A stretch of 64,000 nucleotides of DNA from assembly GCF_036365525.1 (NCBI RefSeq), contig NC_090387.1:76321300-76385299 (forward strand), read 5' to 3'. The DNA comes from Heterodontus francisci. Lineage: Eukaryota. A program made the position numbers and the translations under genes. Under the pieces are notes generated by a model. It did no database searches and was not told the DNA's origin. It worked only from the letters and a program-made list of their open reading frames with translations. Position 1 is the first letter of the stretch. Every line of letters starts with the position of its first letter. Positions 20,939-61,439 of the stretch are shown here, one piece after another.

Positions 20939-21886
20939 ATGGCAGGAGATCTCAGACCCGTATCATGCTCCTCTTGCTCAATGTGGGAGCTCAGGGACAT
21001 GGCTGATGACCCTGGCTCCTTCACGTGCAGGAAGTGTGTCCAGCTGCAGCTCTTGTTAGACCGCATGACGGCTATTGAGCTGCGGATGGACTCACTTTGG
21101 AGCATGCGCGATGCTGAGGAGGTCGTGGATAGCACGTTTAGTGAATTGGTCACACCGCAGATTAGGATTGCTGAGGGAGAAAGGGAATGGGTGACCAAAA
21201 GGCAGAGAAAGAGCAGGAAGGAAGCGCAGGAGTCGCCTGCGGTCATCTCCCTCCAAAACAAGTATACCGTTTTGGATACTGTTGAGGGAGATGGCTCACC
21301 AGGGGAAGGCAGCAGTAGCCAGGTCCATGGCACCGTGGCTGGCTCTGCTGCTCAGAAGGGCGGGAAAAAGAGTGGAAGGGCTATAGTCGTAGGGGATTCG
21401 ATTGTAAGGGGAGTAGATAGGCGGTTCTGTGGTCGAAAACGAGGCTCCCGAATGGTATGTTGCCTCCCAGGTGCATGGGTCAGGGACGTCTCAGATCGGC
21501 TGCAGAACATTCTAAAGGGGGAGGGTGAACAGCCAGTTGTCATTGTGCACATAGGCACCAATGATATAGGTAAAAAACGGGATGAGGTCCTACAAGCAGA
21601 GTTTAGGGAGTTAGGAGCCAAGTTAAAAAGTAGGACCTCAGAGGTAGTAATCTCAGGATTACTACCAGTGCCACGTGATAGTCAGAGTAAAAATGAAAGA
21701 ATAGTCAGGATGAATGCGTGGCTTGAGAGATGGTGCAGGAAGGAGGGGTTCAGATTTTTGGGACATTGGGACCGGTTCTGGGGGAGGTGGGACTATTACA
21801 AATTGGACGGTCTACACCTGGGCCGGACTGGAACCAATGTCCTTGGAGGTGCTTTTGCTAACGCTGTTGGGGAGGGTTTAAACTAA
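20939..21886 (+). CDS. CR1 ORF1p (zinc finger, coiled coil, SGNH esterase), 315 aa
   Basis: CSSC..CRKC zinc finger, heptad region, and SGNH blocks VGDS, PGA, HIGTND, DGLH. Confidence 0.93.
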   Translation: MAGDLRPVSCSSCSMWELRDMADDPGSFTCRKCVQLQLLLDRMTAIELRMDSLWSMRDAEEVVDSTFSELVTPQIRIAEGEREWVTKRQRKSRKEAQESPAVISLQNKYTVLDTVEGDGSPGEGSSSQVHGTVAGSAAQKGGKKSGRAIVVGDSIVRGVDRRFCGRKRGSRMVCCLPGAWVRDVSDRLQNILKGEGEQPVVIVHIGTNDIGKKRDEVLQAEFRELGAKLKSRTSEVVISGLLPVPRDSQSKNERIVRMNAWLERWCRKEGFRFLGHWDRFWGRWDYYKLDGLHLGRTGTNVLGGAFANAVGEGLN

Positions 21887-24840
21887 TGTGGCAGGGGGAT
21901 GGGAACCAATTGAGGTCAGTTGACAGTGAGGAGGTAGTAACAAAAGCCTGTAAAAAACTAGATAATGAAGTCAGTGTGACTAAGGGGAAGAGCAGGCAGG
22001 GATCAGATGATGAATATAAAGGGTCTGGTGGTCTGAGGTGCATTTGTTTTAATGCAAGAAGTGTAGTTGGTAAGGCAGATGAACTTAGGGCTTGGATTAG
22101 TACCTGGGAGTATGATGTTATTGCTATTACTGAGACTTGGTTGAGGGAAGGGCATGATTGGCAACTAAATATCCCAGGATATCGATGCTTCAGGCCGGAT
22201 AGAGAGGGAGGTAAAAGGGGTGGAGGAGTTGCATTACTGGTCAAAGAGGATATCACAGCTGTGCTGAAGGAGGGCACTATGGAGGACTCGAGCAGTGAGG
22301 CAATATGGACAGAACTCAGAAATAGGAAGAGTGCGGTAACAATGTTGGGGCTGTACTACAGGCCTCCCAACAGCGAGCGTGAGATAGAGGTACAAATATG
22401 TAAACAGATTATGGAAAGATGTAGGAGCAACAGGGTGGTGGTGATAGGAGATTTTAATTTTCCCAACATTGACTGGGATTCGCTTAATGTTAGAGGTCCA
22501 GATGGAGCAGAATTTGTAAGGAGCATCCAGGAGGGTTTTCTAGAGCAGTATGTAAATAGTCCAACTCGGGAAGGGGCCATACTGGACCTGGTGTTGGGGA
22601 ATGAGCCCGGCCAGGTTGTTGAAGTTTCAGTAGGGGACTACTTTGGGAATAGTGATCACAATTCCGTAAGCTTTAAAATACTCATGGACAAAGACGAGAG
22701 TGGTCCTAAAGGAAGAGTGCTAAATTGGGGGAAGGCCAACTATACCAAAATTCGGCAGGAGCTGGGAAATGTAGATTGGGAGCAGCTGTTTGAAGGTAAA
22801 TCCACATGTGATATGTGGGAGGCTTTTAAAGAGAGGTTGATTAGCGTGCAGGAGAGACATGTTCCTGTGAAAATGAGGGATAGAAATGGCAAGATTAGGG
22901 AACCATGGATGACAGGTGAAATTGTGAGACTAGCTAAGAGGAAAAAGGAAGCATACATAAGGTCTAGGCGGCTGAAGAAAGACGAAGCTTTGAAAGAATA
23001 TCGGGATTGTAGGCACAATCTGAAACGAGGAATTAAGAGGGCTAAAAGGGGTCATGAAATATCTTTAGCAAACAGGGTTAAGGAAAATCCCAAAGCCTTT
23101 TATTCATATATAAGGAGAAAGAGGGTATCAAGAGAAAGGATTGGCCCACTAAAGGACAAAGGAGGAATGTTATGCTTGGACTCAGAGAAAATGGGTGAGA
23201 TTCTAAACGAGTACTTTGCATCGGTATTCACCGAGGAGAGGGACATGACGGATGTTGAGGTTAGGAACAGATGTTTGATTACTCTAGGTCAAGTCGGCAT
23301 AAGGAGGGAGGAAGTGTTGGGTATTCTAAAGGGCATTAAGGTGGACAAGTCCCCAGGTCCGGATGGGATCTATCCCAGGTTACTGAGGGAAGCGAGAGAG
23401 GAAATAGCTGGGGCCTTAACAGATATCTTTGCAGCATCCTTAAACACGGGTGAGGTCCCGGAGGACTGGAGAATTGCTAATGTTGTCCCCTTGTTTAAGA
23501 AGGGTAGCAGGGATAATCCAGGTAATTATAGACCGGTGAGCCTGACGTCAGTGGTAGGGAAGCTGCTGGAGAAGATACTGAGGGATAGGATCTATTCCCA
23601 TTTGGAAGAAAATGGGCTCATCAGTGATAGGCAACATGGTTTTGTGCAGGGAAGGTCATGTCTTACCAACTTAATAGAATTCTTTGAGGAAGTGACAAAG
23701 TTGATTGATGACGGAAGGGCTGTCGATGTCATATACATGGACTTCAGTAAGGCGTTTGATAAGGTTCCCCATGGCAGGCTGATGGAGAAAGTGAAGGCGC
23801 TTGGGGTCCAAGGTGTACTAGCTAGATGGATAAAGAACTGGCTGGGCAACAGGAGACAGAGAGTAGCAGTGGAAGGGAGTTTCTCAAAATGGAGACGTGT
23901 GACCAGTGGTGTTCCACAGGGATCCGTGCTGGGACCACTGTTGTTTGTGATATACATTAATGATTTGGAGGAAAGTATAGGTGGACTGATTAGCAAATTT
24001 GCAGACGACACTAAGATTGGTGGAGTAGCAGATAGTGAAGGGGACTGTCAGAGAATACAGCAGAATATAGATAGATTGGAGAGTTGGGCAGAGAAATGGC
24101 AGATGGAGTTCAATCAGGGCAAATGCGAGGTGATGCATTTTGGAAGATCCAATTCAAGAGTGAACTATACAGTAAATGGAAAAGTCCTGGGGAAAATTGA
24201 TGTCCAGAGAGATTTGGGTGTTCAGGTCCACTGTTCCCTGAAGGTGGCAACGCAGGTAAATAGAGTGGTCAAGAAGGCATACGGCATGCTTTCCTTCATC
24301 GGACGGGGCATTGAGTACAAGAGTTGGCAGGTCATGTTACAGTTGTATAGGACTTTGGTTCGGCCACATTTGGAATACTGCGTACAGTTCTGGTCGCCAC
24401 ATTATCAAAAGGATGTGGATGCTTTGGAGAGGGTGCAGAGGAGGTTCACCAGGATGTTGCCTGGTATGGAGGGCGCTAGCTATGAAGAGAGGTTGAGTAG
24501 ATTAGGATTATTTTCATTAGAAAGACGGAGGTTGAGGGGGGACCTGATTGAGGTGTACAAAATCATGAGAGGTATAGACAGGGTGGATAGCAAGAAGCTT
24601 TTTCCCAGAGTGGGGGTTTCAATTACTAGAGGACACGAGTTCAAAGTGAAAGGGGAAAAGTTTAGGGGGGATATGCGTGGAAAGTTCTTTACGCAGAGGG
24701 TGGTGGGCACCTGGAACGCATTGCCAGCGGAGGTGGTAGATGCGGGCATGATGGAGTCTTTTAAGATGTATCTAGACAGATACATGAATGGGCAGGAAGA
24801 AAAGAGATACAGAAGCTTAGAAAATAGGCGACATGTTTAG
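21886..24840 (+). CDS. CR1 ORF2p (APE endonuclease plus reverse transcriptase), 984 aa
   Basis: Endonuclease motifs FNARS, ITETW, GDFN, SDH; RT motifs YRPVSL, DFSKAFD, GVPQGSVLGP, FADD. Confidence 0.97.
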   Translation: MWQGDGNQLRSVDSEEVVTKACKKLDNEVSVTKGKSRQGSDDEYKGSGGLRCICFNARSVVGKADELRAWISTWEYDVIAITETWLREGHDWQLNIPGYRCFRPDREGGKRGGGVALLVKEDITAVLKEGTMEDSSSEAIWTELRNRKSAVTMLGLYYRPPNSEREIEVQICKQIMERCRSNRVVVIGDFNFPNIDWDSLNVRGPDGAEFVRSIQEGFLEQYVNSPTREGAILDLVLGNEPGQVVEVSVGDYFGNSDHNSVSFKILMDKDESGPKGRVLNWGKANYTKIRQELGNVDWEQLFEGKSTCDMWEAFKERLISVQERHVPVKMRDRNGKIREPWMTGEIVRLAKRKKEAYIRSRRLKKDEALKEYRDCRHNLKRGIKRAKRGHEISLANRVKENPKAFYSYIRRKRVSRERIGPLKDKGGMLCLDSEKMGEILNEYFASVFTEERDMTDVEVRNRCLITLGQVGIRREEVLGILKGIKVDKSPGPDGIYPRLLREAREEIAGALTDIFAASLNTGEVPEDWRIANVVPLFKKGSRDNPGNYRPVSLTSVVGKLLEKILRDRIYSHLEENGLISDRQHGFVQGRSCLTNLIEFFEEVTKLIDDGRAVDVIYMDFSKAFDKVPHGRLMEKVKALGVQGVLARWIKNWLGNRRQRVAVEGSFSKWRRVTSGVPQGSVLGPLLFVIYINDLEESIGGLISKFADDTKIGGVADSEGDCQRIQQNIDRLESWAEKWQMEFNQGKCEVMHFGRSNSRVNYTVNGKVLGKIDVQRDLGVQVHCSLKVATQVNRVVKKAYGMLSFIGRGIEYKSWQVMLQLYRTLVRPHLEYCVQFWSPHYQKDVDALERVQRRFTRMLPGMEGASYEERLSRLGLFSLERRRLRGDLIEVYKIMRGIDRVDSKKLFPRVGVSITRGHEFKVKGEKFRGDMRGKFFTQRVVGTWNALPAEVVDAGMMESFKMYLDRYMNGQEEKRYRSLENRRHV

Positions 24841-38728: not shown

Positions 38729-40124
38729 TAAATGTTTAAATGTTTAAATTTAAATTTAAACATTTAAATCTTAAATGTCTTCTTTTAAAACACTTCCACT
38801 GTTTTCCTAGAACATGAAAATCCTCCAAATTTCTTCGCAACGTTGCGAACCCATAGTGATCAGAGTTCTTTGTGAGGAGATATAAATGACAGAACTTTGG
38901 ACCAGCTATTGCCCCGAAATAATATCCCATTACTTTCAATGTATAAATTGTGGATAAATTTCCACCTTCAAATAACATTCATTTTCATCTACTCTCGGTG
39001 AACGCGACGTTATTTGCTGATTTACAACGAAGATTTGATGTGTAAAGCGGCATGTGTAAAGATGCACTGTGGTAATAAACGTATTTCTCACCTTTGACAG
39101 TACCTCCGCTTAAAATAATCCCCAACTATGACTATCAGCACCATTATTATCACTATACCGAGACACCATTATTATCACTAACTGCCGAGACACCAAAAAG
39201 AGGGCAGCGACGTTAGCAGCACCTACAAACAAAGAGTAACGGCGATATAAGACCGACGGGCATTAATGTCAATTAAACCAGCAAGAAAACCCAGGGATAC
39301 ACGGGATCAGAACTAATCGTGTAAAGGCCATTTAATAAAAGTACAAATATAAATATTCAAATAAAATGCCAACAAGTGAAACAATTCACAATCTGACCAA
39401 AATTTCGTCTATGTAATAAACGAATTCAGTAACATCAAATGCTAACATGTGTTCACAAACGTGTGCTTGTATTAAGAAAAACGATGAAGGAGCGAACGTT
39501 GCTGAAAAATCAATTGACGATAGCTTCAAAGTTGTAACTAACACTGGCTGGAGTCTGAAGAAAGGCATGAGACAACTGGCAGCTGTATGTAGCTCCACTG
39601 TGGGATGGCGCCGTACCATTAAAGTGCTGGAAATTTCATACAGTCCCACTCTGGCTTGCTGTTTAGTCGTTTTGATTCCGGTTACAATATTTGCATTATT
39701 CTGATACCAAGCCACATTGAGGTCTTCAGGGTAAAACTTAGCTGTTTTACACAGGAGAATCGGAGAAGTGGATGGACGGAATTCAGTTTCAACTAAGTCG
39801 ATCTTCAGAGGAGTGGGCGGAACTTGAGAGGAAAAGAAAATTATTTTATGTTTGAAACATTAATTTTTTATTTCTGTCGTCTATTATGTAGAACGCGAGT
39901 TAGGGACGGGACCCTTTAACATCATGTTTCATTGGAAATATTTCCAAATATTATGAAACAGGAAGCTAGAAATTACATGGAATCCGAATCATAGAGCAAT
40001 CGATCGTAGAAGGAGGCCATTGGTTTATCTTGCCTTTGTTGACACTTTGAAAGAGTTATGCAATTGGTCCCACCTCCTGCTCTTTCGCTATAGCCCTGCA
40101 AAATTTTCCTTTTCAAGTACATAT

Positions 40125-41724: not shown

Positions 41725-43620
41725 CTGTTTCTCTGTCCACAGATGCTGCCAGACCTGCTGAATATTTCCAGCACTTTATGTTTTTATTTCAGATTTCCAG
41801 CATCTGCAGTATTTTGCTTTTATTAGATCACAGCAGCCTGCCGTGTAAAACAATTTCTCCTCCCCTCCCTTCTTGTTCTTTTGCCAATTATCTTAAATCT
41901 GGGTCCTCTGGTTACCAACGCAAAGTGGTCTGGTTATAGAGTCATGTGACTTTACAACGCGGGAATCCATTTGGCTCAGTGTGCTGGTGTCGGCTCTGAA
42001 AGAGCAATCCTGTTAGTCTCACTGACATATTTATACTCCCTTCAGCCCTTTAGGTATTCCCGTCAGATCAGTTAAACTGCTTATTTCTGTTCTAATATAT
42101 TCTGTCCGTTTCCAAACATCATCTCCCGATGATCCGCTGTAACGTTAGAGGAAGAGCTGCGGGAACCAAAGAAAAACAAAGTTCCCTAGGGTTTTGGAGA
42201 ATCCCCCATGTAATGTTGAGAGGAACATGTGGCCGCTTTGCGCAGGAGCACGGTAAATATATTTACAAGGAGTTCTTGTGGTTTTGTTTCCAGTGAAATC
42301 ATAAAGTTGTTCCAAAACACTTACCATCTCGAGAATAAAGTTTCGTGCTCATTTTAATACTAAGTTGTAGTGACCACAGTAGAAATTCCCTGTTTGCTAT
42401 TTCTAGCAAAATTGTAGGAGTTTTGCGAAGAAATATTTGGCCAGAGAAGAGGAAATATCCATCCAGAAACCATCCCATAATTAGCAAATATTGGGGAAGG
42501 TTTTGACTTTGTTCCACAATGGAAACTGGTCGAGAGTCAGTCGGCAGTCCCTCTTACATATCCCCTATTTTTATTCCCACTGAATTTGGAACCACTAACT
42601 TGCTATCAATTGTTCTACATTATCTACACATTGCCTCTGAAGGGGGAAGGTTTCCTCCCTTGCACTATGTAAGGAAATTGTAAATCTTTAAAAAATAACT
42701 GATTACATTGTACAAAATACATGCAGAAAAGCCTGCCGTAAATTGACAATCTCAGCTCTCGAGTGGCTTGATGCTGACACTGGATACACTGGGCCGGTGT
42801 TCCATTCCCGCACGCTTTTCTACCTCTTTGATATTTTCCTAAATACCTGTTGCACAACTGACACTTGTAACATCAGCACCAGCGACTTACTGGCCACAAG
42901 GAGCTCTGAACCGGTTCCATTTCCAAACATTCCTCCCGGACAGTACACGGAGCAGTAATAACGGCCTGAATCTTTGAAGCTGACATTCAAGAGATGGATG
43001 GCGGCTCCTTTTTTCAGAATGTTTTTACTGTCTCTTGCTCGCTTCTCCGTCGTCCAAGAACTCGTCATCACCATGTCGCCACCATTGAACCTTTACATCT
43101 GATTCCTCTTGAAAGACGGGGAACGTGCAGTGGAAGATGATGTTTACTCCTTTGAGTGCAACTTTGAGTGGAGGGATGTGGCCGACTGTGGATTCCCCAA
43201 CAACTATCAGAAAGCCAATGGAAACATAAAAATAAGCATCTCATTATACAAATAAATAAAGATAGAAACAAGGTTAAAAAGAATCGTGAAATATAACAAC
43301 GATAAACCGTGAATGGCGATAAATTCACCGATCAAATAATATCACGCTCCATATAGTGTTCTTATCTCTATCTTGTAAATACCGGTGTGTGTAATCCCCA
43401 AGATCAATATACCGGGAAGCATTTCGGATAATGGAATTTGACTGAATTCACAACCCTTTGAGCGAAGAAATTTCTCATCCCATTCTTAAATGACTGACAC
43501 CTTCTCCTTAGACAATGACCTCGTGTTCTAAATTCTCCAGTCAGGAGAAACAGCTTCTCATCATCTATCCAGTCACTTCACTCCCTCTAAGAATTTTATT
43601 AGTTTCAATCAGTTCACCTT

Positions 43621-52189: not shown

Positions 52190-52336
52190 TTAGTTTCTGA
52201 GCTTTCTCTCTTTCTTTATCACGTTTACTTCAGCATACACTGCGCTCTTGTCTTGTTTAGGTTTTGATGTTTTCTTGGAATCAGCAAGCTGCAGAGCGGC
52301 GTAAGTCAGCTGGTTATCACCGCCTCTTTGTTTAGT
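52190..52336 (-). CDS. Gene 1 exon 7: terminal exon with ITIM LTYAAL and AVYAEV
   Basis: TACTTTTACAG| acceptor; TKQRGGDNQLTYAALQLADSKKTSKPKQDKSAVYAEVNVIKKERKLRN followed by stop. Confidence 0.87.
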   Translation of the reverse strand, partial: TKQRGGDNQLTYAALQLADSKKTSKPKQDKSAVYAEVNVIKKERKLRN

Positions 52337-55300
52337 CTGTAAAAGTAATATTTCGTATCACCCGTTAGTCTATTGCCTACTCATTGGTTGAGGTAATCGA
52401 GGTTTGAAAAAGGCTGCAGTGAAATTTCTTCACATCAATTACCAACTTCAGATTGTAACCGGATTTTGTATTGGTTTATTTCTCCAGTTTCTCCCTTCTC
52501 TGCAAACGATTCATGTTGCGTTCCAATTCCAGACCCTCCCCTAAATCTTATTAGTATTCCGCTTTAACCTTCATATAAAATTAGTTCTGATGAAAGGTCA
52601 CAGACCTGAAACGTTAACTCTGTTTCTCTCCCCATAGATGCTGCCAGATCTGCTGAGTTTCCAGCACTTTCTGTTTTTATTTCAGATTTACAGCATCCGC
52701 AGTATTTTGCTTTTCTAAAACTAGTTCTCCTGCTGAAGCAGCCCATTTCAGTGAGCAGACTAGATACCTCAATTAAAATAGAAAAATGAATTTCATATTG
52801 GTCTGTTAAGGGTATTTGGAATGATGATATAGTAAAGCACCGTTTTAAGGCCCTGTTGTTTGAGCCTCGACAGCCAATGTGACCCTTAACCCAAAGGCGA
52901 GGCTCCAAGGTCACATTTTTCAGCCGCCTTTCCCTTACCCCCGCTGATCTCTGAGACATGAAGGTCAAAAATGATGCACCTTGGCTGAGATCAGCTGGCA
53001 CAGCACAATGGCAGATTAAACTTGGGATCTTTGCTTTTTCTGCAGCTCAGTGTCGTACCACTTAACACTTCTGATGTATCAATGAATGGTCTGAGCTGTA
53101 CCTGGGCTTACACCGTACTCTGCTCCTTCTGTCGGTGTTTCGCATTGCTCCTGGTCCTGGTTTCGACAGTGGCGCAGGGCAATTCTTGTTTCGTCTGTAA
53201 AATAGATATTTGCCAGTCTTACCAGGTGAGTTTCTTATTTTGCAATTTGTAATCGTTATTACAGCCAGACCCGGAAAAGAAATGGTGCTAATTGTGACTG
53301 CTGTCGTGTGAAACGGATGGATAGAGTCCGCAACCCGTTTTACATATCTGATGATTTCTATTTCCATGCAAGTCAGCGGGAGAGATGCCGATTCGCCAGC
53401 ACTCGTTATATACTGTCCTATAAAGTCAACACTACCTCGGTAAATTCTGTATAGCTTGTTAGAGTTGACTCTGTTATCACAGAGTGTTGATTTTGTGTGG
53501 AAATGTTTTGGATATCATTCGCGCCAATCGCTCGCCCTACCTGGGGATAGACGGTGTGCTCTCCCTTATGTTTACGATTGGGGGGTCCTTTGTCATCTCT
53601 CAAGTTTAGAGGAGCGTAGGCGGTAAGTTGTTCACTTGGTCCTTGTCTAACCTGTAAAAATGAGATATGAAATACTGATAGTTAGAGTCTAATAAAGCAG
53701 CCAGCTATCATCAATTGGAACTGAGTCTGAAAGTGTCAATATGGAGACAGTAACCGATAAAATTAGGGCTTAATTGCATTCTGCCCACTCACAATGATTT
53801 TATTCAATATCTCACCCATAGGGTGAGGAATAATGTTCCAAATATGAAATCCGGATCATTCAAATATTCTTAATCCTCAGTCAGCCCAGTCTATTGGAAG
53901 ACCTTACAGGCGGAGCCTGAAATTGTCGTAATTCGACTTCCAGTCACTTCCATCCCGAGCTGGAAATCAGCCGCTGGGACCTTGGCCATTCACCCCTCCC
54001 GCCGCAACTACCCAACCCAAAGACTTGCAGGTTGATAGTTTAATTGGCCATTATAAATTGTCCCTAGTATAGGTAGGTGGTAGGGACAGGTGGGGATGTG
54101 GTAGGAATATGGAGTTAGTGTAGGATTAGTATAAATGGTTGGTTGATGGTCGGCACAGACTCGGTGGGCCGAAGGGCTTGTTTCAGTGCTGTATCTCTAA
54201 ACTAAACTAAACTACCCCAGTGTTTCAGAGTTCAGGCCAATTAGGTCCCGATAGCACTGTTCCAGCTCAGTCACCAGAGTTGGGGACGGCATTGGGACCT
54301 TCCAAATCTAAAAGCAAAATACTGCGGTTGCTGGAACTCTGAAATATAAACAGAAAGTACTGGAAACACTCAGCAGATCTGGCAATATCTGCGGAGAGAG
54401 AAGCAGAGTTCATCTTTCATGAAAGGTCACAGACCTGACACGTTCCCTCTGTTTCTCTCACCTGCCTAATCTGTCTGGTTGCGCTGCACAATATCTCAAT
54501 TAAGCAACAGGGCATCTCCGATTTTTAAAATAATTTGAATTATGAAAGAGAAAGTGGTCAGATGTGTATGTTGAAGTAAAGACAAATATTTATCGTGTCT
54601 TGACGGGTAGTATACTGTGCAAGTAGTGACAGCATGTACTTTCACGAGTTTTGATACTGTACAAGTAGTGAGAGCTTGCACTTGATTTAGTGTGTGAATA
54701 AAATATTGATATACCTTTCACCAATCAGATTCCGCGGATTCTTTAAGACTAGAGTGTGTGTTAGGCACAACAATAATCAGGGTGGATCGGGATGTTTTTA
54801 ATGCAGTCCGCTATTGTGATCTGTAATGCACTGCCTGAAAGGGTGGTGGAAGCAGATTCAATAGAATCTTTCAAGAAGGATATATACTTGATATGAAAAA
54901 AATGTCGGGCTATTGGTAACAAGTCGGCGAGTGGGACTAATTGGATAGTTATTTCAAAGAGCCGGCACAGGCACCATGGCCTCCTTCCTTGCTGTAGGAT
55001 TCTACGATTCTGTGAAATTTAATTAATATCTTCTGGACGGAATGTAAAATTTCTTGCTATTTCCCGCCTCATTTTGGACGATGAGAACATTGTCACCCTA
55101 CCGGCTCTTCAGCCTGACCCGCTTCCTCAGAATTTTTCTTACTGCCTGAGGGAAAGAGAAGACAACATTGAATAGCTTAATCAGTGTATCAGCAAAACAA
55201 TATCATGCTTAACACAGGTAAAGTAAGGAGACTTGAAGGTACAAATCTCTCTGAACATTTTAAGCAGCACCAGCTATTACAGTGCAACATGCTGTGCATT

Positions 55301-58300
55301 ACCTTCGCATACCCCGCAGTGGCGCTGCACCCAATGGAGTCGACCTTGTCTTTGTGTGACAGTGTAAAACAGGGTTGTCCAACATTTTGCGAAGTTGTGG
55401 GGCGGGGGTCGGTGGGGTGGGGGGTCGTTGCGAGGGGAGAGACAATACAGTTTTTGTCTTACATAGGGGGCCGGTGAGAAGAAAGCAGCAAGATGAAGGC
55501 ATTAAAAACTGATCTTGCTATTAATCAAAGGGGCAGCACAGTGGCGCAGTGGTTAGCACTGCAGCCTCACAGCTCCAGCGATCCGGGTTCAATTCTGGGT
55601 ACTGCCTGTGTGGAGTTTGCAAGTTTTCCCTGTGTCTGCGTGGGTTTCCTCCGGGTGCTCCGGTTTCCTCCCACAAGCCAAAAGACTTGCAGGTTGGTAG
55701 GTAAATTGGCCATTATAAATTGTCACTAGTGTAGGTAGGTGATAGGGAAATATAGGGACAGGTGGGGATGTGGTAGGAATATGGGATTAGTGTAGGATTA
55801 GTATAAATGGGTGGTTGATGGTCAGCACAGACTTGGTGGGCCGAAGGGCCTGTTTCAGTGCTGTATCTCTAAACAAAACAATTGTACATTTTTGTGAGGA
55901 AGCTTTAAATTAGAAGATTCATTGATTGACTGACTTTCTCATCATTATGTTGGACACTGACTTAGTGAGATACCTGGCAGTTTTTGTTTGCATATGCAGT
56001 CAATGTTTGTCCACACACTTGTAGTGATTCAGAGTATTCCAGATAGATGTCCATCTGTCAGGAATGATCTTGATCAGTCTTTCTCCCTCTCTCTCCTTGT
56101 CTCCCTCTGTCCCCCTCTCTGTGTTCCCCTGCACTGTGTTGTTCCCCTGCACTGCGTTGTTCCCTCCTCTATGTCGTTCGTGCTGTCTGTGTGCCCCCCC
56201 CCCCTCACTGCCCCCTCTTTCTCTCTCTGTAACCCCCCTCTCTCTATCACTCGCCCTCCCCGCACCCGCGCACCGCCGCTCTCTGAGAGTTGCAGAAAAC
56301 GGAACGGTCAGCAGAGCAGCTTTGTGGTTGATCAGTTTTTTTCAAAAAATCGCAAATCATTTTCACAACTGACTGGTGCTGGGAGCTGAGACAGCGGTTT
56401 TCCAGCTTAGGACAGATTCGGGGTTTTCCGGCCGTTTTCGACTTTTTTTTTTATAAAGCGTGCTGGAATACCCCGAATCTGTTCTAAGTTCGGAAACTGC
56501 TGTATTCGCTCCCAGCAACTGTCAACTATGAAACTGACTTGCAATTGTTTTTTTTTTAAAAGTCGGTCTGGAAAAAGAAGCCAATGAGAATTTTTTTTTT
56601 CTCTGAAATTGTCAGTCACAGATTCCTGGCGAGGATGAGGAATGGTTCGATGCAGTTTACATCCGTGGTCGGATGGAAACCTTAGACAGGCCGGATTCCG
56701 GCCCGGGGCGGTATGTTGGATATCCCTGGTGTAAAAGATGTAGTAGAGAGTCGGCAGCACATTTTACATTTCAAAATTACAATGAAAATAAAATCCGGAT
56801 GAGATGTAAAATAGGTTGCCCTTACCAATTCGATATCATCCATTTTACATTATCGCAGAAAGTCAAAATATACTTCAAAGTGTTTACACTTCAAGATCTG
56901 GACCCGAAATGATAGCAAAAAAAATGCATAACGTTAAGGATTCCGGGTGTTGCAAAATAGAAGTGAAAAAGTCGAATGAATAGTTGGAATAGGAAGGTGA
57001 AATAATTGCATTTCAAAATGCAGTATACATGGTCATATTCAACTACCAAGCATATAAAGCTCTTGTGCTATAAACTTCATTCTTTGAACATGCAGTAAGG
57101 TGTCCTTTATTCTTCGACAATGAATGACGATCCACCTGCCCTTTCTGTATTGTAAAAATACAACCAGGCCTTAGAAAATAAAAGTATTCGGTGGAATAAG
57201 AAATATTCTTACCATCTGATGTCTTTAATTTGAGTCTCGTCAAAATTATTATTAATAGTAAAATTGCCAGTATGCTCCCGGCACATCCAAAAATCAGCAG
57301 AAAATCATTATCAGTACCTGTAGGATTAACAGATAATTGAAATAAGGAACTGTCGAGCACAGGGAGATATATACACAGAGAATCGTGGGTCAGGCAAGGG
57401 AGGACGAGTCGCAAAGGTGTCTCTCGGGGTAACGGTTTCTACTGTCAGTGGGGCTGGACCGCTTTTATTTCTAAGGGTAGTATATCATCATGTGTACCAA
57501 ACAATGACAACTGTAATTCAGTAATGCAATTTATGGAGAAAACAAATCCTATTCCATAAAGGCACGTGAAGCTTCGCTCTGCACGTGAGGGTTGTTTATT
57601 AAGAGTAAAGGGAGTTACACTTTTTTTACCTATCAGTGCGACACCAGACTGATGCGCAACGGCTGCAAAGGTGGCAAAATCTTCCATTCTTCAGCGCTGA
57701 CATTCCTCGGCAGTGTGACTAGAGAATACCGGCTGTACTACTTTTAGTAGTTAACAAGTAACTTGCATTTATGCACCGCCTTTAACATCATAAAACGTCA
57801 AAAGGCACTTCACAGAGAATCACCAAACAAAATTGTAAACCGAGCCACAATAAGAGGATATGAGGAAAGGTGGAGATAGAGTTCAAGGAGCGTCTTAAAG
57901 GAGAGGTCGGGAATTTTAAAGTTTAGGATGTAGACAACTGAAGGTATGGTGCGCAGAGAACAGATTAACATGATATTTCCATATATTCAATTTAAATTCA
58001 TGATTTGTAAAGTGACTCTGGTAGAACAGATCCATTTTATGTGTAGTTTCATTTTATTTGGCAAGAATTTGAAGAGGAATAATCTTTCAAGTTTTGAGCA
58101 GCGCGCAAATCAACCTCCCGTTTCAGTTCGCTTCAGGGGTATACTCTCCTTCCTTCACCTACAAACCATCTTGAATATTTTATTTCGTATCCATTGATGT
58201 GTCATTGAGAGTAAATACAGTCCACATTCACTCCGTATTCTGGAGTTTGAACAGTGTTCCAGTTACCTGTCTAATAAGTAAATACAGATTGAAGTAATTA

Positions 58301-61300
58301 TCACTTTCCCCGCTGTACATATTTGCAAACGTACCTCGATTGACGGTGTAGCTGACACTGGCAGGTACCAGAAGGGACACATGAGATGCCAGACAGGTGT
58401 AAACAACTTCATTCGGGGCAGGTTGTACTTCTTCCAAAAAACTGGAAACCTCATAAAGTCCCTCTGCGTTCCTGCTTTTAACAGTTTCGTTACCGCTCAG
58501 AATTTCGACACCATCTCTTAACCAGGAGATTTCTAAATGCTCCGGGTAAAAGGCAGCCGTTTTACATTCGAGTTTCGGATGAGTCGCTGAAATTCCTTCA
58601 ACAGGAACAATTTTCAGCGGGGTCGGGGGAACTTTAACAGAGAGAAAAAAAAGTTTTAATTTAAAGGAACACATTCTCATTTTCTACCCTTCTAATGCTG
58701 TTACCCTTCGACAGTTAGTGCTGTCGTTCTTTAAACTTTATGTTCGGATTTATTTTATAAATTGTTGTACGGCACACAGCAAAATAGCGGGATGTATTAC
58801 AAACAATGGACAAAGAGGATGATACTCCAAGCGCGAGTTACAATCAGGAAAGCAGATGCCACTGCTCTGAATGGAAGTATAGGATCCTGGCGCGGGATTG
58901 GTGTTAGCAGTAATGACCCCAAATGAGATTACTGTCCTAATATATCGGAGTGAACGCAAACCAGTTCACACGAACAGCGGAATCGTCCCTCCTTATTCTG
59001 TAAGAATCATTGCCGTACTGAACATTTTGTGTGTTTATTTCAATATTGGCCGTTTTCGAATATTCTATATATTTCAAAACATATTTTCTTTTAGCAGTTA
59101 ATATTGAGAAGATGATGTGTGTAATCAAAATATCTCTGATGTCGATATTGAATCCAGACAGGATGTTGTTATATGCATAGATTATGCATTCCAATATTTC
59201 CGCGTCTATGGTGGAGATTTCAGATCGTGCAGCTTTCACCTAAGGAACTTTCTCCAGAGGGGGAATCGAGGGCTGAAACGTTTTTCACCTTATGAAAGGG
59301 TTATATTGGTAATTATATATCAATGTGTAGATCACAACATCCATACAGAAGAGGGAAACATAATGGGAAATCCTAACTCAGAGTGCATGTTTTATATAAT
59401 TCCAGGGGTTTCGCCCTTCCCCATGTTCATTCGGTCTGTTTAACACGTTTTGCCGCGAGAAGATTCTGCTCATATCGTTCCTACATTCACCATTAACTAA
59501 TACGAACCTGTGTCCGCTCGATCTCCAGTCACTGTTTAGCTGGAAGGTCAGGCCCTTTATAGCTTTGCATTGTTTTGCTAATTTATTACAATCTCCTTAA
59601 TATTTTCTCTTTACACATTTACTTTTCCGAATTGCATTCTATTACTTGTAGTAATAGAAAATTATTAAATTAGGGACATTATTAACTTGCAAAATTATAT
59701 TCACCTTTATTCCCAACAAAGGCTCAGAATTCCTCCATTCTTTTACCAGGGATCTGCTGCAGAGATAATATGCAATGCAGCAGAATTTCAGTGGAGATGG
59801 ACGGCGGAGTTCTTTTGATCTCTTGCCATAATTTCCGTGTGGGGTTTGGGGAGTGTAAATGGAAATCATGAATTACAAATACTGGAGCCCAGGCGTTTAT
59901 ACAAATGTTCCGTGGTGTCCTTCCAGTATTTGACGGGTTGTGAGCGCATAAAAGAAAATCCAATTGGCGCACGACAGAGGTTCAAACACGGGCATTGGGT
60001 AGCTTCACTATTTTGCAAGTTGGAGGACTTGAGGTGGAATCCAGCACTGAGGGCAAGATCGACACCCCATTCTGACTGGGTTATAGGATTCATTTGTAAA
60101 AAGAGGTTGGTATCTCAAACAACTTATTACTCGACACAAGTGCACAGCATAAATTGACATAGGAACAGGAGTAGGCAATTCAGTCCCTCGAGCTTGCTGT
60201 GCCACTCATTTAGATTATAGTTGATTCGCTCATTAACTCCATTTTCCTAACATAATTCCTTTCCCTTGCTACCCATACCTAACAAAAATCTATCCACATC
60301 AAATATCGGAGAAGTTGGTAAAGAAATATTAGATCGGCAGTTTTGAGCAGTGAAAAGGGCTCTGGTGCGAGAAATATTCACGGCGGTAGCAGAAACGTTT
60401 TCACTTGAGTTTGTAACGAGTCACCTTTTTGGGGTGGATTAGATGGTCTTTAATGTTGTATAAAAGACTCAACCTAGGAGGTAAAATTATTCCTATTGTT
60501 GCACGTTGGCACCGCTATTTTGGTGAGAAGGAACGTGGCCATCTTATCTTATTGATTAATTTCAAACTAAGGTTTAAACATCCTTTTCCACTAACTTGTC
60601 TTAATAACAATTGTACCTGCACCAAAAGCACTCATTGGGCGAAAAGCACTTTGGAATGTTATGAGGACAATGAGCTGGTGAAATTGGTCTTTAGGCACTA
60701 GCGCAAAACTGGCGATCGCAAATCAGCGGTTGTTGTACACCGGGGTCAATGGAAAAGAAAATCCCGAGATGTGTAAAACGAATTTGTTGTCAGCCAGTTT
60801 TCGTCCAGAGAAATTACATATATTGCACACAGCTGAAAAAGTCCCACTCCCTGGTACAATGACACTTACCGTACACAGTAAGCTGCGAACCACTTCCATC
60901 TCCAATGGATTCGTTAGATTTTACATGACAGTAATACATTCCGGAGTCTGCAACACTCGCATTCAGAATATCAAATGAACTACTTCCCTTTTTTACATGA
61001 AATCGCTTTCTGCTGTCTGGTTGCAGAAACAATGCCTCGCCGCGTTTCCACCAATAAACATCGAGATTATATTGAATTAGCGAAAATGTGCAGAACATGG
61101 AAACATTCGCACCTCTGGCAACGTTCAAGAATTTAGGGAACTGTTCCACTTTCTTCGAAGTTACTTCAGTGGCTATTAGAAAATAAACAAGAACGGTGGT
61201 AACAGTTGTGTACATAATTTAAAGAAAAATAACTAAGAGAAATAAAACACAAAACCCATTAAAAACACCAACAAACGAATTGGAGAAACACAATATCTAA

Positions 61301-61439
61301 TTTTGTAATGCATAACAATTGTAGAATCTTCTAAAATATGGTTTAAGCTATTCTGAAACGGCAGCATATACTAACTAAAGGTACCTGGCCAAACCATTCC
61401 CAAAAGAGCCATGTACTGAACTGAAGCTCTCAACGACAT
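52190..61439 (-). CDS. Gene 1: intact V(J)-C1-TM-ITIM immunoglobulin-superfamily receptor (SIRP/NKp30-like), about 353 aa, 7 exons: 61385-61439, 60870-61172, 58335-58631, 57213-57317, 55102-55145, 53541-53651, 52190-52336
   Basis: All introns are GT-AG with matching phases (1,1,1,1,0,0). Exons total 1062 nt with no internal stop. Leader MSLRASVQYMALLGMVWPA; V domain C..YWWK..DSGMYYC..GDGSGSQLTV; C1 domain CKTAAFYPEHLEISW..YTCLASH; TM FLLIFGCAGSILAILLLIIIL; tail motifs TAYAPL, TVYPQ, LTYAAL, AVYAEV. Confidence 0.88.
52583..52619 (+). ncRNA. Minimal type-I hammerhead ribozyme motif (repeat extends to about 52715)
   Basis: Same 37-nt motif as 41688-41724. Confidence 0.65.
53541..53651 (-). CDS. 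Gene 1 exon 6: cytoplasmic tyrosine motifs 1-2
   Basis: TTTTTACAG| acceptor; VRQGPSEQLTAYAPLNLRDDKGPPNRKHKGEHTVYPQ; |GTAGGG donor; 111 nt. Confidence 0.8.
54016..54213 (+). mobile_element. HE1-type SINE, 3' part
   Basis: Matches the 3' half of 55531-55880; (CTAAA)n tail. Confidence 0.87.
55102..55145 (-). CDS. Gene 1 exon 5: short cytoplasmic linker
   Basis: Strong acceptor TCTTCTCTTTCCCTCAG|, encodes GSKKNSEEAGQAEEP, donor |GTAGGG. Converts phase 1 to phase 0 as the model requires. Confidence 0.72.
55531..55880 (+). mobile_element. Full-length HE1-type SINE in a gene 1 intron
   Basis: GGGCAGCACAGTGGCGCAGTGG head, B box GGTTCAATTC, CR1-like tail. Confidence 0.92.
57213..57317 (-). CDS. Gene 1 exon 4: transmembrane segment, uncharged
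   Basis: GTDNDFLLIFGCAGSILAILLLIIILTRLKLKTSD; CAG| acceptor and G|GTAAG donor, 105 nt. Confidence 0.88.
58335..58631 (-). CDS. Gene 1 exon 3: Ig C1-set domain
   Basis: Acceptor TTTTCTCTCTGTTAAAG|, donor G|GTACGT, 297 nt. CxxxxFYP, W, GLYEVSSFL and YTCLASH are C1-set hallmarks. Confidence 0.93.
60870..61172 (-). CDS. Gene 1 exon 2: Ig V-set domain with germline J-like G strand
   Basis: Acceptor TTTTCTAATAG|, donor G|GTAAGT, 303 nt. Canonical Cys, Trp and DSGxYYC; ends IGDGSGSQLTVY. Confidence 0.93.
61385..61439 (-). CDS. Gene 1 exon 1 (signal peptide)
   Basis: ATG at 61439 gives MSLRASVQYMALLGMVWP, then a phase-1 donor G|GTACCT about 210 nt upstream of the V exon. Confidence 0.75.

What the first reader, a model, noticed from the sequence alone, without database searches (positions are those of the whole stretch)
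58335..61172. Germline-joined VJ exon plus C1: antigen-receptor architecture without rearrangement
Seen: both V exons run from DSGxYYC through a short loop into GxGxGSxLxV (IGDGSGSQLTV; FGNGTGSELLV) and end on a phase-1 donor like a J segment. I found no heptamer-nonamer recombination signal around them. Known: C1-set domains are largely restricted to Ig, TCR, MHC, tapasin, SIRP and B7 relatives, and an unsplit VJ-C1 gene is the proposed substrate of the RAG transposon insertion. Inference: these genes could be relatives of that precursor. They are unlikely to be germline-joined shark Ig light chains because they have a TM and tail and lack WYQQ.
Basis: partly seen in the sequence, partly recalled or inferred. 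Interest (0 to 1): 0.7.

Follow-up and report, generated by a model that had tools for sequence, protein, structure and literature searches.

The report
Shark paired VJ-C1 immune receptor family
This horn shark gene encodes an antibody-like, non-rearranging surface protein and is one of more than 40 clustered relatives that likely act as paired 'off' and 'on' immune receptors; this copy has a premature stop in its tail, so it is likely a weakened 'off' receptor rather than a special relic of the antibody ancestor.

Summary
In detail: an unsplit V exon ending in a J-like GxG strand, a C1 exon, a transmembrane exon and tail exons, with no recombination signal. Two corrections: the J motif lacks the F/W of real J segments (0 of 40 family V exons), and the second 'gene' (42891-43203) is a frameshifted pseudogene. 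The gene is one of at least 42 V-C1 pairs clustered on horn shark chromosome 17, with relatives in rays, skate and chimaera. Members carry either an uncharged membrane helix with tyrosine-motif tails or a membrane arginine with a short tail. Four such pairs share 97-99% identical V exons. This is the layout of paired inhibitory/activating receptors, as in SIRP. The family forms its own supported clade, outside the sampled Ig light chains, TCR, NCR3, UrIg2 and bird SIRP; deeper links are unresolved. It lies neither in the MHC nor in the Ig/TCR complex, but on a chromosome that shares paralogous markers with the latter. Gene 1 has a stop codon that removes its two distal motifs unless one exon is skipped. 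I found no description of the family in eight literature searches; key papers were unavailable.

The parts
61385..61439 (-). Gene 1 exon 1: start codon and leader peptide
   Evidence: ATG at 61439, GT donor, phase 1; matches residues 1-18 of P0004
60870..61172 (-). Gene 1 exon 2: unsplit VJ-type V domain (short, no J aromatic, no RSS)
   Evidence: RNA-labelled contig joins 58631/60870 exactly
58335..58631 (-). Gene 1 exon 3: C1-set domain (Cys-x13-Trp, FYP, CxxxH)
57213..57317 (-). Gene 1 exon 4: uncharged transmembrane helix
   Evidence: helix 221-252 in the model
55102..55145 (-). Gene 1 exon 5: proximal tail
53541..53651 (-). Gene 1 exon 6: tail with one tyrosine motif (TAYAPL)
53102..53194 (-). 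Gene 1 exon 7 (phase 0/0): carries a TAA stop at 53110-53108 where paralogues have Tyr
   Evidence: a DNA contig of run X1 spans 52905-53138 with no difference
52190..52336 (-). Gene 1 exon 8: intact terminal exon with two ITIM-like motifs (LTYAAL, AVYAEV); reached only if exon 7 is skipped
42891..43203 (-). Gene 2 V exon, broken (stop and indels)
   Evidence: 290 of 312 aligned bases match the intact paralogue L021
39524..39822 (-). Gene 2 C1 exon, frameshifted
   Evidence: 267 of 299 aligned bases match L021, one 1-nt gap
39092..39222 (-). Gene 2 TM-like exon, broken
   Evidence: AG/GT-bounded hydrophobic stretch with an in-frame stop

Best explanation
The gene is one member of a clustered family of germline-encoded VJ-C1 membrane proteins of cartilaginous fish that likely work as paired inhibitory and activating immune receptors, and this copy is likely an inhibitory-type receptor weakened by a stop codon in its tail. 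Shown: exon structure, absence of RSS, family size, two kinds of membrane segment, near-identical V exons across the two kinds, the stop codon. Inferred from established paired-receptor biology: the V domain binds a ligand; uncharged members recruit SHP-type phosphatases through ITIM-like tyrosines; arginine members couple to a zeta/FcR-gamma-type adaptor; V exons are homogenised between partners by gene conversion or exon exchange, so that both see the same ligand. Gene 1 would give a 333-residue chain with one tyrosine motif, or a form with three motifs if exon 7 is skipped. Ligand and cell type are untested.
For: 47 V and 49 C1 matches on contig C17; 42 of 46 distinct V matches have a same-strand C1 within 20 kb and no V between (lower bounds). 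Relatives named from sharks, rays, skate and chimaera. Of 139 stored family-like proteins (isoforms not merged), 90 have an uncharged helix, 57 of them with at least one ITIM-like motif; 12 have an arginine helix; 37 have no helix in the model. Arg/neutral pairs: V exon identity 96.9, 99.4, 98.4 and 98.1%, C1 92.2, 93.2, 81.9 and 90.8%, TM 57.8, 61.9 and 61.2% for the three pairs measured; arginine TMs of different pairs are 84.4 and 78.8% alike. This meets the three criteria for paired receptors quoted in PMC3716694 (passages). A zeta-family adaptor exon is in the genome. dN/dS 0.49 (V) and 0.41 (C1) over 21 pairs in gene 1's subfamily. Family is one clade in V (99/97) and, with a coelacanth protein, in C1 (99/99). 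Fab-type pairing looks unlikely: 25 of 40 V exons have an N-glycan sequon at the J-aromatic position, and the residue after the first C1 cysteine is hydrophobic in 7 of 37.
Against: No binding, signalling or cell-type data. 7 of the 12 arginine-type proteins carry one tyrosine motif next to the membrane (4 are isoforms of one gene), and 33 of 90 uncharged ones show no motif, so the two classes are not clean (the sorting rule is crude and missed at least one arginine helix). No excess of amino-acid change in V overall. Expression of gene 1 itself is weakly shown: the spliced V-C1 contig differs at 2 bases and may come from a paralogue; one 82-nt piece matches gene 1 exactly but lies inside an exon; the runs are only guessed to be RNA. 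Gene 1's closest arginine-type relative shares only 89.7% of the V exon. PMC4016189 (passages) found no FcR-gamma in sharks; the adaptor seen here looks more like CD3-zeta (my reading).
Confidence: 0.8

Rival explanations
1. The family is a surviving sister copy (ohnologue) of the VJ-C1 locus that RAG invaded, and of SIRP: one pre-duplication receptor locus left copies on C34 (Ig/TCR complex), C16 (SIRP address in mammals) and C17 (this family). This concerns origin and can be true together with the best explanation.
For: C17, C5 and C34 carry ZFHX paralogues; C17, C16 and C5 carry CEBP paralogues; C16 and C5 carry SEP-domain and opioid-precursor paralogues. IgH, NAR and TCR V segments with RSS lie on C34. 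The C1 clade includes a coelacanth protein, so it likely predates the shark/bony fish split. Sister status to rearranging V, UrIg2 V, SIRP or IgL is not rejected.
Against: Only chromosome-scale: the nearest marker identified is over 25 Mb from the clusters, and 220 kb of flank gave no identifiable neighbour. C34's place rests on one ZFHX gene. Other unsplit VJ-C1 genes lie on C10 and C39, so the choice is after the fact. No tree support. The V domain is shortened. PMC12227049 (parts 1-4 of 8) and PMC10751288 (passages) derive the Ig/TCR complex from the proto-MHC and favour UrIg2.
Confidence: 0.15
2. These are the shark orthologues of tetrapod SIRP, with one C1 domain instead of two, and bind CD47.
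For: Same V-C1 topology, J-like strand without aromatic, ITIM tails, paired layout. SIRP-alpha is the fifth PDB match of the family profile and the first that is not an antibody or UrIg2 chain (115 bits). RefSeq labels many members SIRP-like. A family+SIRP clade is not rejected (p-AU 0.41-0.60).
Against: Bird SIRP V and C1 fall outside the family clades (one SIRP sequence only). The family V profile scores bird SIRP at 31 bits, below turtle multi-V proteins at 44-64. The mammalian SIRP neighbours (recalled: NSFL1C, PDYN) map to C16, not C17. Activating members have Arg near the outer end of the helix, whereas SIRP-beta uses DAP12 (Lys recalled). A bird SIRP query found no strong match in this genome (best E 2.9e-6, IgH).
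Confidence: 0.15
3. The family is the shark branch of an already named non-rearranging VJ-C1 family of bony vertebrates (PRARP or the Xenopus VJC1 genes).
For: A coelacanth V-C1-TM-ITIM protein groups with the family in C1 (99/99). PMC10751288 (passages) notes several VJ-C1 genes in tetrapods. From recall, PRARP has V-C1 and an ITIM/ITSM tail outside birds.
Against: PMC10751288 lists PRARP as MHC-linked; MHC class I is on C29 here. The coelacanth V scores higher on the NCR3 profile (50.5) than on the family profile (38.3). A search with the coelacanth protein found only itself. The primary papers were not available, so no PRARP sequence was compared.
Confidence: 0.2
4. The genes are recent derivatives of a germline-joined Ig light chain or TCR that gained a membrane anchor.
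For: All 49 listed Foldseek matches of the model are chains of antibody Fab entries. Germline-joined IgL and NAR V exist in this genome.
Against: No WYQQ, no J aromatic in 40 of 40, V 13-18 residues shorter than IgL V, no RSS remnant. Separate long-stemmed clades in both trees, shared with chimaera. Foldseek identities are 19-26% and the library is rich in Fabs.
Confidence: 0.03
5. Gene 1 itself is a decaying copy with no working product.
For: Premature stop in exon 7; its neighbour is a pseudogene and several other copies are broken.
Against: Leader, V, C1, TM and all splice sites intact; exon 8 intact; skipping exon 7 keeps the frame with no stop; a paralogue's model lacks exons 6-7 (P0007). 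The stop lies 6 nt before the last junction, which by the usual rule (recalled) escapes decay.
Confidence: 0.15

Closest known systems
SIRP family (SIRP-alpha/beta/gamma; PMC2785349 parts 2-3 of 4, PMC3716694 passages)
   Same: Unsplit V with J-like strand, true C1-set domain, gene cluster, ITIM tails, inhibitory and charged-helix members with similar ectodomains.
   Different: One C1 rather than two; shorter V; Arg-type rather than DAP12-type activating helix; over 40 genes; different chromosome from the SIRP neighbours; not grouped with bird SIRP in trees; CD47 binding untested.
NCR3/NKp30 (shark clusters on C29, the MHC class I chromosome; label from my reading of the sequences)
   Same: Single-exon VJ domain without J aromatic; multigene clusters; arginine in some helices.
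   Different: No C1 found in the eight NCR3-like loci fetched; separate clade (100/99) in the V tree; MHC chromosome.
UrIg/UrIg2 (PMC12227049, parts 1-4 of 8)
   Same: Non-rearranging VJ followed by C1, in sharks.
   Different: UrIg2 has many C1 domains, forms disulfide-linked Fc-like dimers, has a V of 73-74 residues between cysteines, and lies in the Ig/TCR complex; its domains group apart from this family.
PRARP and Xenopus VJC1 genes (named in PMC10751288 and PMC11599192; details recalled, primary papers not held)
   Same: VJ-C1-TM with tyrosine-motif tail.
   Different: PRARP is reported MHC-linked and is a gene pair (recalled); orthology not tested.
Teleost NITR and mammalian LRC paired receptors (recalled; PMC4016189 passages)
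   Same: Clustered inhibitory/activating pairs; arginine helix.
   Different: They use I- or C2-type domains, not C1; PMC4016189 found no LRC-type homologues in sharks.
RefSeq models in cartilaginous fish labelled SIRP-like, tapasin-related-like, NCR3LG1-like or Ig lambda-like (e.g. XP_067906041.1)
   Same: The very genes are already modelled.
   Different: Labels are automatic and inconsistent; they do not describe a family.

Membership tests
Paired receptors | Separate genes in a cluster | tested here: met
   42 of 46 V matches paired with C1 in clusters on C17
Paired receptors | Similar ectodomains across members | tested here: met
   V exons 96.9-99.4% identical in four Arg/neutral pairs
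Paired receptors | Inhibitory-type and activating-type members by sequence | tested here: met
   57 of 90 uncharged with ITIM-like motifs; 12 arginine-type
Paired receptors | Opposite signalling shown | not testable with these tools
   Needs cell assays
SIRP | V followed by C1-set with Cys-x13-Trp and (F/Y)(F/Y/H)P | tested here: met
   37 of 37 and 35 of 37 C1 exons; CxVxH in 28 of 37 (criteria from PMC2785349)
SIRP | Three Ig domains (V-C1-C1) | tested here: not met
   One C1 in gene 1 and most members; two database models show a duplicated C1 (P0022, P0180)
SIRP | Groups with SIRP in domain trees | tested here: inconclusive
   Bird SIRP outside the family clades, but a joint clade is not rejected; one SIRP sequence
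SIRP | Located by NSFL1C/PDYN (recalled) | tested here: not met
   SEP-domain and opioid-precursor genes on C16 and C5; family on C17
SIRP | Binds CD47 | not testable with these tools
   A CD47 family search rang nowhere, controls included; uninformative
Rearranging antigen receptor (Ig/TCR) | RSS-flanked V and J segments | tested here: not met
   with 9 of 9 positive controls found
Germline-joined Ig light chain | WYQQ, FGxG, secreted V-C, grouping with IgL | tested here: not met
NCR3/NKp30 | Single VJ domain directly before TM, MHC-linked | tested here: not met
   C1 exon present; C17 not C29; separate V clade
UrIg/UrIg2 | VJ plus three or more C1, in MHC or Ig/TCR complex | tested here: not met
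PRARP / VJC1 genes | Orthology by sequence and synteny | not tested
   No named sequence obtained; papers not held

The most novel reading that the evidence does not exclude
The chromosome-17 family is the surviving, never-split sister of both SIRP and the Ig/TCR-alpha-delta locus. One VJ-C1 paired-receptor locus existed before the last genome doubling; RAG invaded the copy now on C34, the C16 copy became SIRP, and sharks kept and expanded the C17 copy. Antigen receptors would then descend from a paired innate receptor, outside the classical MHC paralogon.
Probability: 0.12. Interest if true: 0.85.

Novelty: new variant of a known kind. Interest (0 to 1): 0.5.

Why it matters
Cartilaginous fish have been reported to lack LRC-type paired receptors (PMC4016189, passages), and SIRP has been dated to tetrapods (PMC13262535, passages). 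A family of over 40 paired V-C1 receptors shared by sharks, rays and chimaera, with a likely coelacanth relative, would fill that gap and give candidate NK or myeloid checkpoint receptors in the oldest living group with antibodies. It also adds a large, old VJ-C1 lineage that models of antigen-receptor origin should place. The single gene flagged is not special within the family.

Tried and rejected
PDB sequence searches with single domains or domain profiles are dominated by multi-domain proteins and antibodies and do not name a closest family. Foldseek listed only chains of Fab entries, TM by query about 0.3, not discriminating. The ESM Atlas gave generic V-C clusters. AU tests rejected none of the nine alternative sister groupings. 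Local synteny: 22 stretches (220 kb) at both sides of the 76-77 Mb cluster gave 68 candidate exons and no Pfam match over cut-off. CD47 search rang nowhere. No RNA holder on record was listed; run X12 laid nothing. Search with the coelacanth protein found only itself. Positive selection over whole exons not seen; no site test was run. No complex prediction was sent, since no binding is claimed. Papers not held: Ohta 2019, Fu 2019, Flajnik 2023. Rows dropped: the tree runs used 20 of 40 horn shark V and 20 of 37 C1 exons and left out near-duplicate outgroup domains; AU tests used 9-10 family rows; no IgH V, tapasin, beta-2-microglobulin, TCR C or mammalian sequence was in the trees. One overlapping V fragment and one half of a split C1 were dropped before the pairing count.

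Full report
Source. The window is G000:C17:76321300-76385299. A protein search with the V exon returned a 100% match named Heterodontus francisci, XP_067906041.1, 'tapasin-related protein-like' (P0004). The gene is already modelled, under an automatic label.

Gene anatomy. On the minus strand: leader 61439-61385, V 61172-60870, C1 58631-58335, TM 57317-57213, tail exons 55145-55102, 53651-53541, 53194-53102 and 52336-52190. Exons 1-7 have GT donors, exons 2-8 have AG acceptors, and exons 1-7 translate to P0004 exactly. Pfam gives V-set and C1-set as best families. The C1 meets the hallmarks listed in PMC2785349 (parts 2-3 of 4): Cys-x13-Trp in 37 of 37 family C1 exons, (F/Y)(F/Y/H)P in 35 of 37, CxVxH in 28 of 37. 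The model has mean pLDDT 84-98 in each block of ten over residues 31-220, two beta domains and a helix at 221-252. One RNA-labelled contig joins 58631 to 60870 exactly, but differs at 2 bases and may be a paralogue's.

The J-like end. The register is D/N-G-x-G-S/T-x-L-x-V. Of 40 intact V exons, the position of the J aromatic holds N in 26, D in 6, K in 5, E in 2, S in 1 and F/W in none; 25 of 40 form an N-glycan sequon there. The cysteines are 53-58 residues apart, against 71 in a shark IgL V, 60-71 in TCR V, 73-74 in UrIg2-like V, 62-69 in NCR3-like V and 61 in bird SIRP. In C1 the residue after the first cysteine is hydrophobic in 7 of 37, while it is Leu in 5 of 6 Ig rows parsed. From known Fab interfaces (recalled), these features argue against antibody-like chain pairing.

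No RSS. The window has 0 sites within 3 mismatches of the consensus (recalled) at 12 or 23 +/-1 spacing; 20 Markov controls average 3.55. Around the ends of 42 V-exon rows the best site has 5-10 mismatches. Nine of nine rearranging TCR/NAR V segments from C34 have 0-2.

The second gene. Its intact paralogue is L021 (290 of 312 bases in V).

The family. Searches of the genome gave 47 V matches, all on C17, and 54 C1 matches, 49 on C17, in clusters near 71, 76-77, 88-91 and 92.5 Mb (lower bounds). 42 of 46 distinct V matches have a same-strand C1 0.7-18 kb downstream with no V between. In 40 fetched loci nearly all V and C1 exons show the same phase-1 layout. Relatives are named from other sharks, rays, skates and Callorhinchus. 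Some subfamilies hold both horn shark and chimaera rows with strong support, so the expansion likely began before their split.

Two kinds of membrane segment. Exon scans found uncharged helices and helices with an arginine near the outer end (L004, L006, L009, L020, L026, L034). Among 139 stored family-like proteins, isoforms not merged, 90 were uncharged (57 with ITIM-like motifs), 12 arginine-type (7 with one membrane-proximal tyrosine motif) and 37 lacked a helix. Four Arg/neutral pairs have V exons 96.9, 99.4, 98.4 and 98.1% identical and C1 exons 92.2, 93.2, 81.9 and 90.8%. The three TM pairs measured are 57.8-61.9% alike, while arginine TMs of different pairs are 84.4 and 78.8% alike (99-nt windows that may run into intron). 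These are the three criteria for paired receptors in PMC3716694 (passages). One zeta-family adaptor exon lies on C10.

Gene 1's tail. Exon 7 has TAA at 53110-53108 where paralogues have Tyr. A DNA contig of run X1 spans it with no difference (this may be the assembly's own sample). With exon 7 the chain ends at 333 residues with one tyrosine motif. Without it the frame stays open into exon 8 and three motifs are present. Skipping was not observed for this gene.

Trees. C1 (59 rows, 103 columns): 30 family rows plus a coelacanth V-C1-TM-ITIM protein form one clade (99/99) on a long stem, apart from Ig/UrIg2, MHC, B7H6-like and bird SIRP domains. V (63 rows, 111 columns): 31 family rows form one clade (99/97), apart from NCR3-like, TCR, IgL, NAR, UrIg2-like, turtle and SIRP rows; the coelacanth V is unplaced and scores better on the NCR3 profile. 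No alternative sister group is rejected. Outgroup labels from this genome are my reading of the sequences. So the family is neither a recent IgL nor a nested SIRP among the rows sampled, and its closest kin is open.

Position. MHC class I is on C29 and unplaced contigs. IgH, NAR and TCR segments are on C34; IgL on C8 and C23. C17 carries a FOXC2-containing forkhead triplet, a ZFHX3-like gene and a CEBPA/CEBPG-like pair, the markers of human 16q/19q13.1 (recalled). C5, C16 and C34 carry paralogues of these and of the SIRP neighbours. C17 is thus likely a genome-doubling sister of the Ig/TCR chromosome and of the SIRP-address chromosome. This is chromosome-scale only, rests on one marker for C34, and other unsplit VJ-C1 genes lie on C10 and C39. 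Published models put the antigen-receptor origin in the proto-MHC with UrIg2 as lead candidate (PMC12227049, parts 1-4 of 8; PMC10751288, passages).

Literature. Eight searches listed no paper describing this family; 'SIRP-like' with 'shark' gave 0. The elephant shark supplement has no 'SIRP', 'ITIM' or 'NKp30'. PMC11599192 (passages) lists CD79, NITR, SIRP, CD8, NKp30 and PRARP as joined-VJ proteins, so unsplit VJ is a known class. Ohta 2019, Fu 2019 and Flajnik 2023 were not held; they or their supplements may list these genes. Eight of 35 earlier AI notes of this scan were shown and reach a like reading; they are not independent support.

Verdict. A real, intact-ectodomain member of a large paired-receptor-type family with a truncated tail. 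It works most likely like SIRP-alpha/beta or LRC pairs (0.8), is not shown to be SIRP, and is no closer to the RAG target than other VJ-C1 genes on present evidence. Interest 0.5, for the family rather than the gene.

Noticed in passing
L045 (G000:C10:72.64 Mb), L073 (C10:72.81 Mb), L072/L046 (C10:82.52 Mb), L049 (C39:40.96 Mb): Further V plus C1 genes outside the family, at least three with an unsplit J-like end; they fall outside the family in both trees. The C10 ones lie within 7 Mb of the zeta-family adaptor exon.
   Followed up: partly
L041/L042 (G000:C17:44.04 Mb) and L044 (C14:55.37 Mb): B7H6/NCR3LG1-like V-C1 genes, one on the same chromosome as the family; a possible ligand candidate.
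   Followed up: partly
L008 and L007 (G000:C17:76.24-76.26 Mb), model P0181: A V exon of the 71-Mb subfamily is modelled onto a C1 and tail of gene 1's subfamily across an 18-kb intron: exon shuffling or a fused model.
   Followed up: no
P0187, P0191-P0194, P0199: A third membrane type (WWIY helix, cysteine-rich juxtamembrane, no tyrosine motif) is conserved across sharks; the cysteines recall palmitoylation or Lck-binding sites (recalled, untested).
   Followed up: no
P0102, P0145 (turtle proteins): Multi-V proteins with J-like ends, one with an arginine helix and one with ITIM-like tail; they score about equally on the family and NCR3 profiles and may be a reptile paired family.
   Followed up: partly
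L050:4081-4434 (G000:C34:7.87 Mb): A germline-joined NAR-type V next to an RSS-bearing V.
   Followed up: no
L062-L068 (G000:C29:14.9-15.4 and 31.0-31.5 Mb): NCR3-like V exons, some in tandem within 3 kb, with both arginine and uncharged helices nearby.
   Followed up: partly
window 21862-24837: A 992-codon open frame of a LINE-type reverse transcriptase; Gypsy-like fragments at about 8-16 kb.
   Followed up: no
L043 (G000:C12:34.19 Mb): A lone Ig-type C1 exon that groups loosely with a UrIg2-like domain, on neither the MHC nor the Ig/TCR chromosome.
   Followed up: no
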